A DNA stretch of 64,000 nt from Shigella phage vB_SdyM_006: sequence record MK295204; one strand, 5' to 3'. This document shows positions 41,085 through 56,482 of this stretch, piece by piece. The notes below the pieces were generated by a model that had not been told where the DNA came from, made no database searches, and was given only the letters and a program-made list of their open reading frames with translations. The position numbers were made by a program, and so were the translations under genes. Within the stretch, counting starts at the first letter, position 1, and each line of letters opens with the position of its first letter.

Positions 41085-42956
41085 TTAGTCTAATTTATCA
41101 TTTAATATTGGTTTAGCAATATGTTTTGTTCTATGGATAACTTCTTTTTGTTTACCTTCGTTAAACCCACGAGAAGCAGGATTTCCAAGATATCCACAGG
41201 TACGACGGACAACAGACATTTTCTTTACATCCATTTCACCACATTTTGGACATTTAAACCCATTTTCTGTAGGAATAAATTCTCCATGGAATTCACATGT
41301 AAAGCATTGGTCAACAGGAGTATTTGTTCCAAAATAATCTAGATTTTCTACAGCATAATCCCAGACCTGTTCTAATGCATCAAGATTATCCTTCATATTA
41401 GGGAGCTCAACATAAGAAATATGACCACCAGATGCAATACGGTGATAATCCTTTTCAAATTCAATTTTCTCAAATGGATTAACTTTACGTTCAACATCAA
41501 GATGGAAACTATTTGTGTACCAACCTTTATCTGTAATTCCTTTAACAGAACCAAATTCTGCTTTATCTAATTTGCAGAATCTGTGACATAAACTTTCTGC
41601 GGGAGTAGAATAAAGACTAAATGCATATCCAGTTTCTTCTTTCCATTTAGAAAGATAATAATTTATTTCTTTAAGAATATGTTTACCAAATTCTTGGGCT
41701 TCTTTATTATCAAATGGTTCATCATTAAAAATCAGTTTTAATGTTTCGTGTAAACCAATATATCCTAGCGAAATAGAACTTCGTCCATTTTTAAATAATG
41801 ATAATATTTCGTCATTAGGGTTCATACGAACACCAAAAGCGCCACCACAATATAAAATTGGAGCTACAGAAGCTTTTGCACCACGTAAAGAATCAATTCT
41901 AGTCATAAGAGCAGTATAACAGAGGCCAAGACGATCTCTCAATGATTGGATATATGATTCTTTAGATAAATTGTCACTACCTAATTCCAGGGCTATTCTA
42001 GGAAGATTTAATGTGACTACACCTAGATTATTGCGTCCATCTAAAATTTCTTTGCCATTTTCTTTATAGACACTTAAAAAAGATCTACACCCCATAGGAG
42101 AAACTGGGACCGAACTACCGGTTATTTCTTTATTAATTTTAGACGAAATAATATCTGGGTACATTCTTTTAGCTGAACATTCTAATGCTAATTTTTTAAT
42201 AAAATAATTAGGGTCTTCAGGTTTAAGATTAATTCCTTCTTCAATAAAGAAGACTAATTTAGGAAATATCGCAGTTACTTCATCTTTGCCTAAGCCTTTA
42301 ATTCTATTTTTAAGAATAGCTTCTTGGATAACTGTGCCGGCCCATGAAGTAGAAGTTCCAAAAGAAATAGTCACAAATGGCGTTTGTCCATTAGAGCTAA
42401 AAAGCGTATTTATTTCATATTCATACGCTTGGAAAGCGTCATAAACATCTTTTTCTGTCTTCTTCATAGCATAATCTTCCCAATCAGGAATACGCCATTC
42501 AAAAGCTTCATTAAGATGTTTTTGGTATGTAGCTTCTACGTAAGGCTCAAGAACAACATCAACATTTGCAAATGTTGTTCCACCATATTGATGAGAAGCA
42601 ACTTGGGCTGTGACTTGGGCCATAATTGCACAAGCTACACCAATTGATTTAGGTGTTTCTATTTCCGCGTTACCAAGCTTAAATCCATTTTCAAACATGC
42701 CTTTTAAATCAACTAAACAACAATTTGTAAAAGGCAGTGATACACTATAATCTAAGTCATGATAATGAATAATACCTTTGTCGTGTGCTTCTACGACATT
42801 AGAAGGCAATCTACTACGAGCCACGTACTTGGAAGCAATTCCGGCCAGTAAGTCACGTTGAGTAGGAAAGACACCATAGGGCTTGTTTGCATTTTCTGTA
42901 GAAAGTTCATTTGATTCACGATTACATACCTCATTAATTTGAGAAATTAAGTTCAT
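41085..42956 (-). CDS. nrdD: anaerobic ribonucleoside-triphosphate reductase NrdD (glycyl radical enzyme)
   Basis: 623 aa; C-terminal zinc ribbon CFTCEF...CPKCG and glycyl radical motif RRTCGYLG; continuous ORF (no intron). Confidence 0.85.
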   Translation of the reverse strand: MNLISQINEVCNRESNELSTENANKPYGVFPTQRDLLAGIASKYVARSRLPSNVVEAHDKGIIHYHDLDYSVSLPFTNCCLVDLKGMFENGFKLGNAEIETPKSIGVACAIMAQVTAQVASHQYGGTTFANVDVVLEPYVEATYQKHLNEAFEWRIPDWEDYAMKKTEKDVYDAFQAYEYEINTLFSSNGQTPFVTISFGTSTSWAGTVIQEAILKNRIKGLGKDEVTAIFPKLVFFIEEGINLKPEDPNYFIKKLALECSAKRMYPDIISSKINKEITGSSVPVSPMGCRSFLSVYKENGKEILDGRNNLGVVTLNLPRIALELGSDNLSKESYIQSLRDRLGLCYTALMTRIDSLRGAKASVAPILYCGGAFGVRMNPNDEILSLFKNGRSSISLGYIGLHETLKLIFNDEPFDNKEAQEFGKHILKEINYYLSKWKEETGYAFSLYSTPAESLCHRFCKLDKAEFGSVKGITDKGWYTNSFHLDVERKVNPFEKIEFEKDYHRIASGGHISYVELPNMKDNLDALEQVWDYAVENLDYFGTNTPVDQCFTCEFHGEFIPTENGFKCPKCGEMDVKKMSVVRRTCGYLGNPASRGFNEGKQKEVIHRTKHIAKPILNDKLD

Positions 42957-43423
42957 TTTAAAGATTTCCTTAAAGCTTTTTTGTATCTTTTAGTTAACTC
43001 GGTTTTTGTATCTGTTTCTAGATATTCAAATCCGTGTAATACCATTTCTTCTATCATTTCTTCTTTAGACAACCGAGAAAACTCTTTAGATTTGTCTATT
43101 ATATACTGTGGATGGATAGGATTTTCACTGCTGTCTTTTTTTAAGTAAAATAAAAGGTTCTCCATCCAATTAATATATTCTACTTTAGATTTTAGTCCTG
43201 AACGATTAAATTTATGCTTCAACTGTCCTTCTGCTGCATTACATAAAGGGCATAATAATCCACGAACTCTTCCAGCTTCAGGACCAGATAACGCATGGTC
43301 ATGGTCCAAATGATTTTTTTGAACATCTTTATCTAATTCTAAACGACAAATACAACAAAGGCCCTTTTGGGCCTTATATAATTTTTCTTTTTCTTGTTTA
43401 AATGATTTTCCGGATAATAACAT
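42953..43423 (-). CDS. 49: recombination endonuclease VII gp49
   Basis: 156 aa; GLCCICRLELD...NHLDHDHALSGPEAGRVRGLLCPLCNAAEGQLKHKFNRSGLK closely matches remembered T4 endo VII. Confidence 0.85.
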   Translation of the reverse strand: MLLSGKSFKQEKEKLYKAQKGLCCICRLELDKDVQKNHLDHDHALSGPEAGRVRGLLCPLCNAAEGQLKHKFNRSGLKSKVEYINWMENLLFYLKKDSSENPIHPQYIIDKSKEFSRLSKEEMIEEMVLHGFEYLETDTKTELTKRYKKALRKSLK

Positions 43424-43720: not shown

Positions 43721-43876
43721 TCATAGTTCACCTGTCTCATACCATTTTTGTTCTTGCTCATCTGTATCAAAGAAACCTTCAAGTCCAGTAGGAAGAGCAC
43801 CCGAAATTCTACTTAGAAGGCTATATAATTTTTCGTTTTGGTCTTCTAAATAAGCAATACGATCTTTATCGTTCAT
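43721..43876 (-). CDS. hypothetical small protein
   Basis: Track ORF extends to 43924 overlapping nrdC; ATG at 43876 follows nrdC stop with AAGGA Shine-Dalgarno. Confidence 0.25.
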   Translation of the reverse strand: MNDKDRIAYLEDQNEKLYSLLSRISGALPTGLEGFFDTDEQEQKWYETGEL

Positions 43877-44138
43877 TAATATATTCCTTAAATTTATCAA
43901 ATCCACCAATAGATTTATCATCAATAAAAATCTGTGGCATTGTTAATCCAACTTCTGAGCGTCGGTTTAAACGTTGTACTAATTCATCAATAACTTGTTT
44001 ATTAAGAACAGGTCCTTCAGATTCTGAAACAGGAATAAAAGTATATTCGAGTTTTTTAACATCTGCTAATCGTTTAGCGTTAATACATGGAACACATTTA
44101 AAGTGTTTAGGGTCAAATCCGTAAATTTCTATTTTCAT
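43866..44138 (-). CDS. nrdC: glutaredoxin NrdC
   Basis: 90 aa; MKIEIYGFDPKHFKCVPCINAKRL...GLTMPQIFIDDKSIGGFDKFKEY matches remembered T4 NrdC. Confidence 0.75.
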   Translation of the reverse strand: MKIEIYGFDPKHFKCVPCINAKRLADVKKLEYTFIPVSESEGPVLNKQVIDELVQRLNRRSEVGLTMPQIFIDDKSIGGFDKFKEYINER

Positions 44139-44404
44139 TTAGATACTGCCATTCTTGTTAATACTGCAGGTAAAGTGAATAATGTAATACTTGGGTGGTC
44201 GACCCAATCGATTTCTTCTACTTCGCCATCATCATCTACAATAGTTTCTTTAAAGAAATCGGCTTCACGAAAATATTGACCTGCAACAGAAGAAAATTGT
44301 TCGCGATTAAGGCCATATTTAGCTAGGGTTTCATCAGAAACTTCTTCATTAGTTAAAACATCAATAGAATGAAAATATTTAGATTTTGTTCTTGTTACTT
44401 GCAT
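44135..44404 (-). CDS. hypothetical protein
   Basis: 89 aa, ATG, ATGA coupling. Confidence 0.3.
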   Translation of the reverse strand: MQVTRTKSKYFHSIDVLTNEEVSDETLAKYGLNREQFSSVAGQYFREADFFKETIVDDDGEVEEIDWVDHPSITLFTLPAVLTRMAVSK

Positions 44405-44414
44405 ATAAATGACC

Positions 44415-44639
44415 TTATTTAATTAAAAAATTGACATAACGTTTACACACGGTATGGATAAAAATAAACACATTTGAAATGATAGTGAGAGTAAAAATTA
44501 ATGGCCACAACAATAAAAGTATAACAAAAGCCTGTACAGGGCTCTCGATATCCATTGTTTTTAATCTAGAATCAAATTTAAAACAAGCAGAAGCTATAAC
44601 GAAAGATACTACAATATAACTAATAATATACAATAGCAT
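44415..44639 (-). CDS. hypothetical membrane protein
   Basis: 74 aa, two hydrophobic segments. Confidence 0.3.
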   Translation of the reverse strand: MLLYIISYIVVSFVIASACFKFDSRLKTMDIESPVQAFVILLLLWPLIFTLTIISNVFIFIHTVCKRYVNFLIK

Positions 44640-44652
44640 TTTATTTCCTCAA

Positions 44653-44832
44653 TTAAAAAGTCATTTTGCAATGTCGACATTTATATTTTAAGTCTTTATA
44701 TTGCCATGATACTAATTGCACCTGGTTTGTCCCACACCCCGGACAGTGCGGAATATTTTTAGAAGCATCTTCACGACGCTTCACCATTTCTTCTACTTTT
44801 TCCCAATTAATAATATCTTTATGAAGAACCAT
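44653..44832 (-). CDS. small zinc-ribbon protein (not in ORF track, 59 aa)
   Basis: Hand-translated: MVLHKDIINWEKVEEMVKRREDASKNIPHCPGCGTNQVQLVSWQYKDLKYKCRHCKMTF; CPGCG...CRHC four-Cys ribbon; fills gap between flanking genes. Confidence 0.35.
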   Translation of the reverse strand: MVLHKDIINWEKVEEMVKRREDASKNIPHCPGCGTNQVQLVSWQYKDLKYKCRHCKMTF

Positions 44833-44834
44833 TA

Positions 44835-45830
44835 TTATTCCTTAAAATTGTAGTAGCTTTTTACTTCTTGTAAATAAACATCATGGATAAACTTATTCCA
44901 AAATTCTGTATCAACCTGTTTAGGCATACCATTTTTAGCAGCAATTATTGCTTTCTTTTCAACATCATCTACAATTGCTTCTAAATTCTGTTGAACGAGT
45001 TTAAAATCGATTTTACCTTGTTTGATATCTAATATTTGTCCTGACATTTTTAATGGCATAACTAAATCGCCAGTATCATAGATTTCGGCTAATTGTACAC
45101 CTGCTCTATATGCATGGCTTAAAGCTTTCCAATCAATACCTTCATTAGCTTCTGCTTTACGAGCTCGTTCGCCATAATTTTGTTCTAGTTTAACAAGAAC
45201 TTTGTTGAATTCAGCATTAGTGAGTGTATCTTGGAATTTTCGGTCTAATAGGCTATAAAATGTTTGTTTACCCGTTTTTTCATTTTCTGTGCTTGTCCAG
45301 AATGCAACACTTGATTTAGGAAGAGCACCTTTCATATGTTCTAAACGAATTGGTGCTCCATTATCAAACACAGGACCCCAGTCATTTGAAACTTTTAACG
45401 CAGCTCTTAACGCAGCTAATCTTGAACCTTTTACACCGTATTTCGATGCCTGTTTACGAACATATCCTAAATAGGCCTTCATATTAGTTGTATAAAATCT
45501 CGAACGATTATCTCTAATAAACCGCCATACTTCTGGTAAATCAGAATGAATGACCATTTGGTCTGGTGCATGGATTAAATCAAGCGCTACGGTTTCACCA
45601 GATGCCGCTAGGTTTAAAAAGTATTTTAACGAATATAATTCATGATCAACATCATCTGAAGTGTTCTTAGATGACCCAGGATTGGTATTCATGTTAAAAT
45701 GCTCTTTAACACGACATGAAATAATACTTTTGGCATCTGGAATATAAATTTCTTTATAATCTAAATCCGATTCTGGAGTACTAGTTCCATATAAATGAGA
45801 ACCAAATAAAATTTTTGCTACAGATTTCAT
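44835..45830 (-). CDS. hypothetical protein with Pol-beta-type nucleotidyltransferase-like N-terminal motif
   Basis: 331 aa; FGSHLYGTSTPESDLDYK resembles G[SG]x(9-13)DxD NTase signature. Confidence 0.35.
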   Translation of the reverse strand: MKSVAKILFGSHLYGTSTPESDLDYKEIYIPDAKSIISCRVKEHFNMNTNPGSSKNTSDDVDHELYSLKYFLNLAASGETVALDLIHAPDQMVIHSDLPEVWRFIRDNRSRFYTTNMKAYLGYVRKQASKYGVKGSRLAALRAALKVSNDWGPVFDNGAPIRLEHMKGALPKSSVAFWTSTENEKTGKQTFYSLLDRKFQDTLTNAEFNKVLVKLEQNYGERARKAEANEGIDWKALSHAYRAGVQLAEIYDTGDLVMPLKMSGQILDIKQGKIDFKLVQQNLEAIVDDVEKKAIIAAKNGMPKQVDTEFWNKFIHDVYLQEVKSYYNFKE

Positions 45831-45832
45831 TA

Positions 45833-46306
45833 TTATTCCTGTTCTTGTAAAGAATTAATAGTATCATTATAAATTCGTTTAGCTTTTTCTTTGTCCGAAA
45901 CGTATCCAAAAAGATAATCTAAAGCTTCTTTCGAAATATCTTGATACTTCACTTTCCACTCTTTGTAGTATTCGGTCAATTGCTGGTCTTTTTTAAACAA
46001 TTCATCTAATAAAGGAATGACTTTTTTATAATGGAAAATACAGGTTCCAATAACTTCCGAAATGTATTCATCTTTAACAGGAGTGCCAGACGTAATTAAA
46101 TTATCTGTGATTTGTAAATTAAAGAACGCTGTTTTGCAATCTGATAACACTGGATTGTTAAAAGCATACAAGTCTTCACATAATTCAGTTATTCGTTTTT
46201 CTGCTTTCTTTTGTTTTGCTGACGGGTTAACAAGCCCACCGAATAATTGGATTGGAGGATATTTTGCAATATTAGAAATAAAAGTTCTTTGTAATTGTAA
46301 AGACAT
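45833..46306 (-). CDS. hypothetical protein
   Basis: 157 aa, ATG start. Confidence 0.3.
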   Translation of the reverse strand: MSLQLQRTFISNIAKYPPIQLFGGLVNPSAKQKKAEKRITELCEDLYAFNNPVLSDCKTAFFNLQITDNLITSGTPVKDEYISEVIGTCIFHYKKVIPLLDELFKKDQQLTEYYKEWKVKYQDISKEALDYLFGYVSDKEKAKRIYNDTINSLQEQE

Positions 46307-46315
46307 ACTTTATCC

Positions 46316-46534
46316 TTATAATAAAACCCATTTGCCATTGTAGTTATTATCATCATTATCTGTAGACACAATAAGATGATCACCGTCAGTCCAAAGTTTA
46401 ATTTTGTAAAGATCATCGCATATACGCCTAGCGTAGTAAATTCTGTTTTCTTCAATGCCATTAACTAAGTTATTATGGTCATCTTTATTACTAATACAGC
46501 CTAATTTAACTAATTGTGTCATTCTTTCATCCAT
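46316..46534 (-). CDS. hypothetical protein
   Basis: 72 aa, ATG start. Confidence 0.3.
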   Translation of the reverse strand: MDERMTQLVKLGCISNKDDHNNLVNGIEENRIYYARRICDDLYKIKLWTDGDHLIVSTDNDDNNYNGKWVLL

Positions 46535-48446: not shown

Positions 48447-48708
48447 CTCGGTTCTCTAGCTCTGTCTCTGGTAAACAAGAAATGCCAGAAGAAGCGTTTT
48501 GATATGAGGCCATGACCCAACATGTCACTTTATACTCAGAATCTTTAATTTTAAAAATAGTTGGCTCATACTCAAACTTGTACCAGCCGGATTTAGATTT
48601 AAGGCTGATTGATGTTGTCTTTACATCTAAGACATCTAATGTTTTTTGTTTATCTTCGGCATAAGCACTAACAGATAAAGCAACTAACAAAGCAATTAAG
48701 TACTTCAT
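48430..48708 (-). CDS. hypothetical secreted protein
   Basis: 92 aa; MKYLIALLVALSVSAYA signal peptide. Confidence 0.35.
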   Translation of the reverse strand: MKYLIALLVALSVSAYAEDKQKTLDVLDVKTTSISLKSKSGWYKFEYEPTIFKIKDSEYKVTCWVMASYQNASSGISCLPETELENRDGNKN

Positions 48709-48915
48709 TTAAAGCCCTTTATTCTTAATAAAATGAGTATTCCATGTATTTGAATTGAATGCCCAGATTAAAATAGCAAGCCATCCAAAAACAGTCCATC
48801 CAAAAACAAAGTTAGCAATAAAAATAGAAGTCTTTGCACAATGATCTCTGTACCATGCCACAAAGAATGGTAAAAAATAAACAACAACTAAAGCTATCAG
48901 AGTTAAAAGTTCCAT
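48709..48915 (-). CDS. hypothetical membrane protein
   Basis: 68 aa, hydrophobic. Confidence 0.3.
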   Translation of the reverse strand: MELLTLIALVVVYFLPFFVAWYRDHCAKTSIFIANFVFGWTVFGWLAILIWAFNSNTWNTHFIKNKGL

Positions 48916-49109
48916 TACTGTTCCTTTTTAATTAAACGAGATGCATAAGGAATTTCGTCATTAAATTTAATAAAACGTTCTTTTTCAATGAGAAGTCCAA
49001 GACCATAAACAACTATACCAGTTAAACCAGTATACATAACAATATACTCCATAGATTCAACAATAATTGTATCACCTATGTTAATAAGACCTAATTCTGA
49101 TAGCTTCAT
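48915..49109 (-). CDS. hypothetical membrane protein
   Basis: 64 aa, hydrophobic core. Confidence 0.3.
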   Translation of the reverse strand: MKLSELGLINIGDTIIVESMEYIVMYTGLTGIVVYGLGLLIEKERFIKFNDEIPYASRLIKKEQ

Positions 49110-50573: not shown

Positions 50574-50738
50574 TCACCGTTTAAAGTTTTTAGAATGATA
50601 AGATTTATCTTGAGCAACTGGTAAGTCAAGAACGTCAGAAATACCAATTTTAGCTGGGCGAGCTGTCAGCCTATCTTGGACATCAACTTTCTTTTCAAAC
50701 TGACCAGCTAACAGGTAATATAAACGATCATTAGACAT
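50574..50738 (-). CDS. hypothetical small protein (not in ORF track, 54 aa)
   Basis: Hand-translated MSNDRLYYLLAGQFEKKVDVQDRL...; ATG with GGAGAG Shine-Dalgarno. Confidence 0.25.
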   Translation of the reverse strand: MSNDRLYYLLAGQFEKKVDVQDRLTARPAKIGISDVLDLPVAQDKSYHSKNFKR

Positions 50739-50803
50739 AATTCTCTCCATTTGTTTTAATGAGGCTATACTATTACAAAATATAGCCTTTGTACACTTAT
50801 TTT

Positions 50804-51226
50804 TTAGATTTTTTCAAAACCTGATTCGTCGCAATCATTTTCATCATAAAACACGGTGTACCCAAGTTTTATCATAGCTTGTAGAGTAGCATTCATGATA
50901 TCAATATTTTCTTCAGAATGGTTCATATTTAAATAAACATAAGCAGAATCACCTGTATGCTCTTTATACTCGTCTTCATTAATTGTCACAACAAAAATAG
51001 ATTTTGGTGATTTGTTTCGTGTAAAATACAGTCGAAAGCACTCTAAATTGTAAGCAATAAGTTCACAAATGGAATTAGTTTTATTTCTCACATTTAAAGA
51101 TTCAAATGAATCTTTAAAAATAGATGAATTTAATTCTTTAGATTCTAAATTGATGCAATCAATAATATCGTTTACTGCTTTGATTTTATCATCACAAAGA
51201 ATCAAAGCTCTAGAACACATTCCCAT
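50804..51226 (-). CDS. hypothetical protein
   Basis: 140 aa, ATG start. Confidence 0.3.
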   Translation of the reverse strand: MGMCSRALILCDDKIKAVNDIIDCINLESKELNSSIFKDSFESLNVRNKTNSICELIAYNLECFRLYFTRNKSPKSIFVVTINEDEYKEHTGDSAYVYLNMNHSEENIDIMNATLQAMIKLGYTVFYDENDCDESGFEKI

Positions 51227-55949: not shown

Positions 55950-56318
55950 CTAAATTGTATCAGTAAATGTTCTGTTAATTACATCTTCTTTCTGTTCATC
56001 AGTTAAAGAATTAAATCTAACAGCGTATCCAGAAACTCGGATAGTTAACTGTGGGTATTTTTCTGGATTTTCTCTTGCGTCTAATAACATTTCTTTGTTC
56101 AATACATTAACATTTAGATGCTGGCCACCTTCGATTCGTGGAGCAAATTCTAAAGCTAAATCTTTTTGAGTAGAATTACCAAATGAAGTCATTGGAACAA
56201 CTTCATCTTCTTTAAAATATTTTGATGCTAAAATTCTACAATTATTTGTTTCTGTATCTACTAAAAAGATTGTTCCATAAAAAGGACCAGAAACAAGTTG
56301 TCTTGCTTGAATTGACAT
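55950..56318 (-). CDS. autonomous glycyl radical cofactor (GrcA/YfiD-like; T4 Y06I-type)
   Basis: 122 aa; [11 protein letters not shown]...[34 protein letters not shown] nearly identical in pattern to E. coli GrcA glycyl-radical domain. Confidence 0.85.
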
Positions 56319-56482
56319 TATTTTACCTCGTACATGTATGGATTAGTATCGTTAATATCTTTAACAAATCCATAGAATTTTTTATTGACATATAATGCAA
56401 TAGCATTTTTATGTTGGACCCATGCTAAATTATATAACTTATCAGAATTACCAAACGCACCTTTAGCTTCATTTAAAATCAT
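56318..56482 (-). CDS. hypothetical small protein (not in ORF track, 54 aa)
   Basis: Hand-translated [54 protein letters not shown]; TAATG coupling to GrcA-like gene. Confidence 0.25.

What the first reader, a model, noticed from the sequence alone, without database searches (positions are those of the whole stretch)
44653..44832. Unannotated small ORFs below the track size cutoff, including a 59-aa zinc ribbon
Gaps in the ORF track contain well-positioned small ORFs: a 59-aa CPGCG...CRHC zinc-ribbon protein (44653-44832), a 54-aa ORF with GGAGAG Shine-Dalgarno (50574-50738) and a 54-aa ORF coupled to the GrcA-like gene (56318-56482). Small zinc-ribbon proteins in phage early regions are often regulators or anti-defence factors.
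Basis: seen in the sequence. Interest (0 to 1): 0.3.

Follow-up and report, generated by a model that had tools for sequence, protein, structure and literature searches.

The report
Known T4 NrdC.2-type zinc-ribbon gene
The 59-codon reading frame is a real, strongly conserved small zinc-ribbon gene, but it is already annotated in the phage's public record and belongs to the long-known, still function-less T4 NrdC.2 family, so it is an ordinary finding.

Summary
The window is Proteus phage phiP4-3, a T4-like Bragavirus (99.8% identity). All three "unannotated" ORFs are annotated CDSs in GenBank and RefSeq (phiP43_199, _183, _169).

The 59-aa ORF (44653-44832, minus strand) is genuine. It has an AAGGA Shine-Dalgarno 6 nt upstream and starts 2 nt after the stop of the nrdC.11 orthologue. 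Against Pm5461, dN/dS is 0.06 and the antisense frames are broken. It is the short orthologue of T4 NrdC.2 (PHROG 1474, E 1e-26), which has translated matches in 1,090 phage records.

In 126 divergent representatives the four Cys are present in 125-126, and Q37, Q39 and R53 are also near-invariant. The knuckle spacer is 18 residues in 83 of 86 aligned members. AlphaFold gives a helix plus a C4 zinc ribbon (pLDDT 80). Structure and profile searches find only generic zinc ribbons. The common "thioredoxin" label is wrong.

Published T4 data show that NrdC.2 protein is detected and that the gene is dispensable, with no defence phenotype reported, although its neighbours NrdC.1 and Gp49.2 are anti-defence factors. 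Function remains unknown. My best guess is a zinc-stabilised binding module for nucleic acid or a conserved host factor.

The only truly unannotated gene nearby is a 74-aa membrane ORF (44415-44639).

The parts
44653..44832 (-). 59-aa CDS, the orthologue of T4 NrdC.2 (PHROG 1474): an alpha-helix (residues 10-25) followed by a C4 zinc ribbon. Annotated as phiP43_199 / KNT81_gp214, 'hypothetical protein'.
   Evidence: ORF and annotation; phrog_1474, E 1.2e-26; 65% identity to T4/T2 NrdC.2; dN/dS 0.057; AF2 model, pLDDT 80.
44839..44843 (-). Shine-Dalgarno AAGGA, 6 nt upstream of the ATG. It lies inside the 3' end of the upstream nrdC.11-like gene, whose TAA stop is 2 nt before the ATG.
   Evidence: Read directly from the sequence (minus strand ...AATTTTAAGGAATAATAATG).
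44734..44745 (-). First zinc knuckle, C30-P-G-C33. It is followed by the near-invariant motif G-T-x-Q37-V-Q39-L.
   Evidence: C30 and C33 are present in 126/126 representatives, Q37 in 124/126 and Q39 in 123/126.
44668..44679 (-). Second zinc knuckle, C52-R53-H-C55.
   Evidence: C52, R53 and C55 are each present in 125/126 representatives; the spacer between knuckles is 18 residues in 83/86.
44835..45830 (-). Upstream 331-aa nucleotidyltransferase, the orthologue of T4 NrdC.11. The nrdC.3-nrdC.10 block of T4 is absent here.
   Evidence: 55% identity to the T4 nrdC.11 region, none to nrdC.3; Pfam RlaP E 4.5e-13; phrog_388 E 6e-113.
44415..44639 (-). 74-aa ORF with two hydrophobic segments and a GAGGAAA Shine-Dalgarno, 13 nt downstream of the zinc-ribbon stop. 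It is NOT annotated in either phiP4-3 record.
   Evidence: annotation gap at record 121305-121554; phrog_31444, E 5e-16; 44.6% identical to Pm5461_068, 'putative membrane protein'.
43866..44138 (-). NrdC glutaredoxin/thioredoxin (90 aa), the conserved downstream landmark of the locus.
   Evidence: weak, sub-cut-off glutaredoxin-family hits, best E 8e-10; 48% identity to T4 NrdC.
50574..50738 (-). 54-aa CDS (phiP43_183) with a GGAGAG Shine-Dalgarno; a narrow-range hypothetical protein.
   Evidence: 17 phage records: Proteus, Providencia, Morganella and Cronobacter phages; phrog_15157, E 4e-32.
56318..56482 (-). 54-aa CDS (phiP43_169) whose stop overlaps the start of the GrcA-like (vs.6-type) gene in a TAATG; found only in Proteus phages.
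   Evidence: 7 records, all Proteus phages; phrog_22759, E 1e-38.

Best explanation
The ORF at 44653-44832 (minus strand) encodes the Bragavirus version of T4 NrdC.2. This is a small, dispensable accessory protein of the T4-like early gene region. Shown here: it is a real gene under strong purifying selection, and it is a minimal form of the family, with a short N-terminal motif, one alpha-helix and a C4 zinc ribbon. It lacks the ~45-residue acidic linker that T4 carries. Inferred: C30, C33, C52 and C55 chelate one zinc ion, which holds a beta-hairpin in shape. The near-invariant polar and basic residues around that hairpin (R20 on the helix; Q37 and Q39 on strand 1; K51, R53 and K56 at knuckle 2) form a fixed binding surface. 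Their invariance across phages of Escherichia, Klebsiella, Proteus and Aeromonas, and in ~45-kb siphoviruses, suggests an equally conserved ligand. I think the most likely ligand is nucleic acid or a core nucleic-acid-handling host machine, so that the protein acts as a small regulatory or adaptor module after infection. It is not a thioredoxin and has no demonstrable link to ribonucleotide reduction beyond gene order.
Confidence: 0.55

Rival explanations
1. NrdC.2 is an anti-defence or host-takeover factor. In this reading the zinc ribbon binds and blocks a host immune protein or a housekeeping protein, as neighbouring accessory genes do.
For: In T4 the adjacent gene nrdC.1 inhibits Septu (bioRxiv 10.1101/2025.11.20.689424), and gp49.2, three genes further on, inhibits OLD (PMC13096335). 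nrdC.2 is dispensable on laboratory hosts. The N-terminal part of the family is highly variable, at 16-103 residues. The family is spread patchily across unrelated phage groups. There are weak hits to a domain of the PADLOC candidate system PDC-S64 (E 3e-4) and to the Lar restriction-alleviation family (E 0.014).
Against: T4 nrdC.2 is not among the anti-defence genes that HIDEN-SEQ reports. The one conditional comparison I saw was not significant (log2FC -0.87, q = 1.0). It lay outside the gp49.1-nrdC.1 segment amplified by OLD escapers. The near-total invariance of surface residues across phages of very different hosts is unusual for proteins locked in an arms race with fast-evolving defence proteins. 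The PADLOC and Lar hits are at the level of generic zinc-ribbon noise. The phiP4-3 gene at the nrdC.1 position is not detectably homologous to T4 NrdC.1 (different PHROG; no tblastn hit), so the T4 neighbourhood argument transfers only loosely.
Confidence: 0.25
2. It is a thioredoxin-like redox protein that works with the neighbouring ribonucleotide reductase genes, as the 'thioredoxin' or 'NrdC-like thioredoxin' labels in many records imply.
For: UniRef and GenBank name many members 'thioredoxin'. phrog_9774, labelled 'NrdC-like thioredoxin', hits at E 9e-12. The protein has two CxxC motifs and sits next to nrdC.
Against: No thioredoxin or glutaredoxin family hit appears in Pfam or NCBIfam even at E <= 1. 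hhalign of the family profile against the phage's own NrdC gives probability 0.3%. At 59 aa the protein is too short for a thioredoxin fold, and the model is a helix plus beta-hairpin. Members also occur in siphoviruses without nrd genes. The label is best explained as spread from the gene name 'nrdC.2'.
Confidence: 0.02
3. The ORF is a chance open frame, or the true gene is one of the antisense ORFs (44666-44824 or 44716-44853, plus strand).
For: ORFs of 54-65 aa are as frequent in random sequence of this composition as in the window (22 against 20.6). Two plus-strand ORFs overlap the region.
Against: dN/dS is 0.057 with third-position-biased substitutions, and the antisense frames carry stops in Pm5461. 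Conservation extends to phages with only about 31-37% protein identity. The T4 orthologue is detected as a protein.
Confidence: 0.01

Closest known systems
Bacteriophage T4 NrdC.2 (NP_049700.1, UniProt P39253; PHROG 1474)
   Same: Homologous over the whole helix plus zinc-ribbon core: 65% identity and the same near-invariant motif RRE-x8-CPxCG-[TS]-x-QVQL-x2-W-x8-KCRxCK-x2-F. It occupies the same position upstream of nrdC in the early region and has the same short N-terminal 'L-x-x-D-I' motif.
   Different: 59 aa rather than 104 aa: the ~45-residue acidic segment between the N-terminal motif and the helix is missing. The upstream neighbour is the nrdC.11 orthologue rather than nrdC.3. The downstream neighbour is a 74-aa membrane ORF rather than nrdC.1.
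Classical C4 zinc ribbons of nucleic-acid machinery (ribosomal L37Ae/eL43, TFIIS/TFS C-terminal domain, NrdR N-terminal domain, IS1/IS1595 transposase N-terminal domain)
   Different: All matches fall below family thresholds. There is no ATP-cone, transposase or ribosomal context. The invariant Q-V-Q-L strand and R20 are specific to this family.
Lar (Rac prophage restriction-alleviation protein) and other small prophage zinc-binding proteins (YnfU, ECs_2282 families)
   Same: Small, standalone, phage- or prophage-encoded, dispensable Cys4 proteins, with weak profile similarity (P0163).
   Different: Scores are far below the curated cut-offs (15.7 bits against 39.6 for Lar). No restriction-alleviation phenotype is known for NrdC.2.

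Membership tests
T4 NrdC.2 family (PHROG 1474) | Significant sequence match to the family profile and to T4 NrdC.2 itself | tested here: met
   phrog_1474 at E 1.2e-26, covering profile positions 35-91 of 99. tblastn to T4 and T2 gives 65% identity at E 1e-21.
T4 NrdC.2 family (PHROG 1474) | Conserved CxxC-x18-CxxC core with invariant Q-V-Q-L and C-R-x-C | tested here: met
   All signature residues are present in the window protein. Across the family: Cys 125-126/126, Q37 124/126, Q39 123/126, R53 125/126.
T4 NrdC.2 family (PHROG 1474) | Syntenic position in the early region, same strand, shortly upstream of nrdC | tested here: met
   phiP4-3, Pm5461, T4, T2 and Aeromonas phage 31.2 all show zinc ribbon, then 1-2 small genes, then nrdC.
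T4 NrdC.2 family (PHROG 1474) | Long acidic N-terminal extension as in T4 (about 45 residues before the helix) | tested here: not met
   Absent in phiP4-3 and Pm5461. This segment varies from 16 to 103 residues within the family, and 58-aa members exist, so it does not define the family.
C4 zinc ribbon fold | Two Cys knuckles flanking a beta-hairpin in the 3-D structure | tested here: met
C4 zinc ribbon fold | Score above the curated threshold of a named zinc-ribbon Pfam or NCBIfam family | tested here: not met
   The best hits are Zn_ribbon_SprT at 18.0 bits (cut-off 28.1), IS1595 at 17.6 (25.4) and FmdB at 17.5 (31.3).
C4 zinc ribbon fold | Stoichiometric zinc binding | not testable with these tools
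   Needs metal analysis of purified protein.
Thioredoxin/glutaredoxin (the label carried by many database entries) | Thioredoxin fold or profile match | tested here: not met
   No Trx or Grx hit at E <= 1. hhalign against the phage's NrdC gives probability 0.3%. The model is a helix plus hairpin.
Known anti-defence proteins (Lar family; PADLOC-related domains) | Profile match above threshold, or a defence-specific loss-of-function phenotype | tested here: not met
   Lar TIGR03655 scores 15.7 bits against a cut-off of 39.6. PADLOC PDC-S64 hits at only E 3e-4 and 18 bits. T4 nrdC.2 is not among the HIDEN-SEQ anti-defence hits. A phenotype in phiP4-3 is not testable here.
NrdR-type regulator | Zinc ribbon followed by an ATP-cone domain | tested here: not met
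   The protein ends 4 residues after the last Cys. Only 1 of 86 members touches the Zn_ribbon_NrdR model, at E 0.003.

The most novel reading that the evidence does not exclude
The NrdC.2 helix-plus-zinc-ribbon module, with its invariant R/Q-x-Q/R face, could be a widespread phage 'plug' for one conserved host target. That target might be a core nucleic-acid enzyme, or a conserved domain of a defence system not yet included in screens. If so, NrdC.2 would be a third counter-defence or host-takeover gene in the gp49.2-nrdC.1 accessory island, and one shared by T4-like myoviruses and ~45-kb siphoviruses.
Probability: 0.2. Interest if true: 0.5.

Novelty: already known. Interest (0 to 1): 0.15.

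Why it matters
As a discovery it matters little. The gene is annotated, its family has been catalogued since the T4 genome papers, and the other two ORFs are narrow-range hypothetical genes.

The work has three modest uses. First, it shows that the widespread 'thioredoxin' label on this family is an annotation error spread from the gene name. Second, it defines a precise signature, [RK]-R-[ED]-x8-C-P-x-C-x-[TS]-x-Q-V-Q-L-x2-[WY]-x8-[KR]-C-R-x-C, and a 58-59-aa minimal unit. Together these make NrdC.2 a tractable candidate for functional study, next to two proven anti-defence genes. Third, it points out one truly missing CDS in the phiP4-3 records.

Tried and rejected
- **Word-indexed protein search, single sequence:** found only 4 relatives. 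A profile query and the exhaustive HMMER search were needed to reach the rest.
- **PDB sequence-profile search:** only generic C2H2 and zinc-ribbon noise, with the best hit at E 0.001 to a designed zinc-finger array.
- **Promoter and terminator scan:** no enrichment over shuffles (25 sites against 22.5), so no transcription-unit claim is made.
- **Functional link to the upstream 331-aa gene:** rejected. It is the NrdC.11 orthologue, brought next to the ORF by the absence of nrdC.3-nrdC.10, and other phages have different upstream genes.
- **Domain fusions:** mostly uninformative, apart from one Rep3 fusion and one protein with a possible helix-turn-helix tail.
- **PADLOC and NCBIfam:** sub-threshold hits only.
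- **tblastn of the 74-aa membrane ORF:** found only phiP4-3 itself, probably because of the low-complexity filter. Unfiltered local tblastn found the Pm5461 homologue.

Full report
**What the window is.** The region 44000-46400 is 99.8% identical to Proteus phage phiP4-3 (MG696114.1 / NC_055737.1; Straboviridae, Bragavirus), in reverse orientation, so window position x corresponds to record position 165958 - x. The finding lies in the T4-like early region. All genes here are on the minus strand and run tk ... nrdC.11-like, zinc ribbon, nrdC, endonuclease VII, nrdD.

**Observation check.**
- The three ORFs exist exactly as described. 44653-44832 (minus strand) encodes MVLHKDIINWEKVEEMVKRREDASKNIPHCPGCGTNQVQLVSWQYKDLKYKCRHCKMTF.
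- Its ATG lies 2 nt after the TAA of the upstream 331-aa gene and is preceded by AAGGA at a 6-nt spacing. No other in-frame start is possible, because a stop lies four codons upstream.
- For 50574-50738, GGAGAG lies 4 nt before the ATG.
- The 56318-56482 ORF ends in a TAATG overlap with the GrcA-like (T4 vs.6-type) gene.
All three are CDS features in GenBank: phiP43_199, _183 and _169. The zinc-ribbon CDS is also in RefSeq as KNT81_gp214.
- ORF length by itself is not evidence. The window has 22 ATG-ORFs of 54-65 aa, while composition-matched random sequence gives 20.6.

**Evidence that the zinc-ribbon ORF is a gene.**
- Against the Pm5461 orthologue (83% protein identity), the 58 aligned codons differ at codon positions 1/2/3 by 7/2/23. 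dN is 0.082 and dS is 1.44, giving dN/dS of 0.057. The antisense frames that are open in phiP4-3 carry stops in Pm5461.
- tblastn finds the protein in 1,090 phage records, mostly Escherichia, Klebsiella, Shigella, Aeromonas, Enterobacter, Yersinia and Salmonella T4-like phages. A few ~45-kb siphoviruses also carry it, such as Kagunavirus phiEc3 gp58.
- A profile search of 5.8 billion proteins finds 255 clusters at 90% identity. An exhaustive HMMER scan of 1.84 billion representatives finds 127 clusters at 50% identity.

**Which family it belongs to.** The protein hits PHROG 1474 at E 1.2e-26. PHROG 1474 is the PHROG assigned to T4 nrdC.2 (PMC11879866 supplement). It is 65% identical to the C-terminal half of T4 NrdC.2 (104 aa, T4 48622-48936) and occupies the same slot upstream of nrdC.1/nrdC. 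NrdC.2 was listed as a conserved T4-like ORF with a weak TFIIS_C match in 2006 (PMC1524935). The phiP4-3 and Pm5461 proteins are minimal versions: they keep the N-terminal "L-x-x-D-I" motif and the helix plus ribbon, but lack T4's ~45-residue acidic linker. The upstream 331-aa gene is the NrdC.11 nucleotidyltransferase orthologue, 55% identical to T4, with an RlaP Pfam hit. Bragaviruses therefore lack nrdC.3-nrdC.10, and the adjacency has no functional meaning.

- In 86 cluster representatives, C30, C33, C52, C55, R20, Q37, Q39 and R53 are invariant. The inter-knuckle spacer is 18 residues in 83 of 86. The N-terminal region ranges from 16 to 103 residues.
- In 126 more divergent representatives (32-86% identity to the query), C30 and C33 are present in 126/126. 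C52, C55 and R53 are present in 125/126, Q37 in 124/126 and Q39 in 123/126. The single exception for C52, R53 and C55 is P0129, whose match to the query stops at residue 47.
- The family signature is [RK]-R-[ED]-x8-C-P-x-C-x-[TS]-x-Q-[VI]-Q-[LI]-x2-[WY]-x8-[KR]-C-R-x-C-[KR]-x2-[FW].

**The "thioredoxin" label.** Many GenBank and UniRef entries, and PHROG 9774, call these proteins thioredoxin. That is not supported. There is no Trx or Grx profile hit. hhalign against the phage's own NrdC gives probability 0.3%, and the predicted fold is different. The label most likely spread from the gene name.

**What is known experimentally (T4 orthologue, from papers).**
- NrdC.2 is classed "early-RNA_middle-Protein" in time-resolved omics, so the protein is detected (PMC9697503 supplement).
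- Knock-down has no fitness effect in CRISPRi-ART ("Not Fit", score -0.63; PMC11879866 supplement).
- Transposon insertions are tolerated at 20 of 21 TA sites, and the gene is classed non-essential. The one conditional comparison I saw was not significant (bioRxiv 10.1101/2025.11.20.689424 supplement).
- The viable tk2 deletion extends to nrdC.2 (PMC3014915).
- In T4, NrdC.1 is a Septu inhibitor and Gp49.2 is an OLD inhibitor (PMC13096335), so the T4 locus is an accessory and anti-defence island. NrdC.2 itself is not among the reported hits.
- The phiP4-3 gene at the nrdC.1 position belongs to a different PHROG and shows no detectable homology to T4 NrdC.1.

**Mechanism (inference).** The four Cys most likely hold one zinc ion that stabilises the hairpin. 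The invariant R20, Q37, Q39, K51, R53 and K56 would then form a fixed recognition surface. Several observations lean towards nucleic acid, or a core nucleic-acid machine, as the ligand:
- The core is basic, with pI 9.5.
- The weak neighbours are nucleic-acid-binding ribbons.
- One member is fused to a Rep3 WH1+WH2 replication initiator.
- One member (P0114) has what looks by eye like a helix-turn-helix tail; this was not tested.
- Non-T4 members sit in replication/early modules.
- The surface is invariant across phages of very different hosts.

I put this at roughly 0.35 on its own. The anti-defence or host-protein-binding alternative stands at about 0.25, and the rest is unknown. The identity claims (real gene, NrdC.2 family, C4 zinc ribbon, not a thioredoxin) are near certain.

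**The other two ORFs.** 50574-50738 (phrog_15157, E 4e-32) is conserved in 17 records of Proteus, Providencia, Morganella and Cronobacter phages. 56318-56482 (phrog_22759, E 1e-38) is conserved in 7 records, all Proteus phages. Both are annotated hypothetical proteins with no family or domain match.

**Verdict.** These are already-annotated small genes, and the zinc ribbon is the known, uncharacterised T4 NrdC.2 family. Novelty: already known. Interest: 0.15.

Noticed in passing
window 44415-44639 (minus strand): A 74-aa ORF with two hydrophobic segments and a strong GAGGAAA Shine-Dalgarno, 13 nt after the zinc-ribbon stop. It is missing from both phiP4-3 records (gap at record 121305-121554). 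It is nonetheless 44.6% identical to Pm5461_068 'putative membrane protein' and hits phrog_31444 at E 5e-16. This is the only truly unannotated gene in the neighbourhood.
   Followed up: partly
database entries for the NrdC.2 family (e.g. P0006, P0008, P0017; phrog_9774): Hundreds of NrdC.2 homologues, and also the NrdC.11-type nucleotidyltransferase (phiP43_198), are labelled 'thioredoxin' in GenBank and UniRef. For NrdC.2 the label fails every test made here (hhalign probability 0.3%, no Trx/Grx profile hit). It looks like an annotation error spread from the 'nrdC.x' gene names.
   Followed up: yes
L009 489-1469 (metagenomic contig SRR34261239_2897, protein P0138): A 326-aa protein joins Rep3_N and Rep3_C replication-initiator winged-helix domains to a C-terminal copy of the NrdC.2 zinc-ribbon module (RREFLSKNMPVCPDCTTRQVQLIDY...KCRHCQKVF). 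A 60-aa ClpX-type C4 zinc-finger gene follows it.
   Followed up: partly
window 44835-45830 versus T4 nrdC.3-nrdC.11 (L003): Bragaviruses (phiP4-3 and Pm5461) lack the whole T4 nrdC.3-nrdC.10 block. As a result the nrdC.11 orthologue directly abuts the nrdC.2 orthologue.
   Followed up: partly
window 42953-43423 (minus strand): A 156-aa ORF between nrdD and the nrdC cluster is annotated as recombination endonuclease VII (the gp49 position). Its N-terminus carries CxxC...CxxC and HNH-like motifs. I did not examine it further.
   Followed up: no
window about 50762-50790 (minus strand): An intergenic hairpin, GGCTATA-N11-TATAGCC, lies between the 140-aa gene (50804-51226) and the 54-aa ORF. No T-run follows it, and its function is unknown.
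   Followed up: no
window 44525-44547 (minus strand): A terminator-like G+C-rich palindrome (CGAGAGCCCTGTACAGGCTTTTG followed by a T-rich tail) lies inside the coding sequence of the unannotated 74-aa ORF. It may be chance or an internal attenuator.
   Followed up: no
proteins P0064, P0075, P0100 (Klebsiella-phage-like metagenomic contigs): Some family members carry an extra C-terminal Cys-rich segment (PVGCEAYCxCPACxGPGHEEWY...TRPGYP). This may be a fusion with the downstream gene or a second metal site.
   Followed up: no
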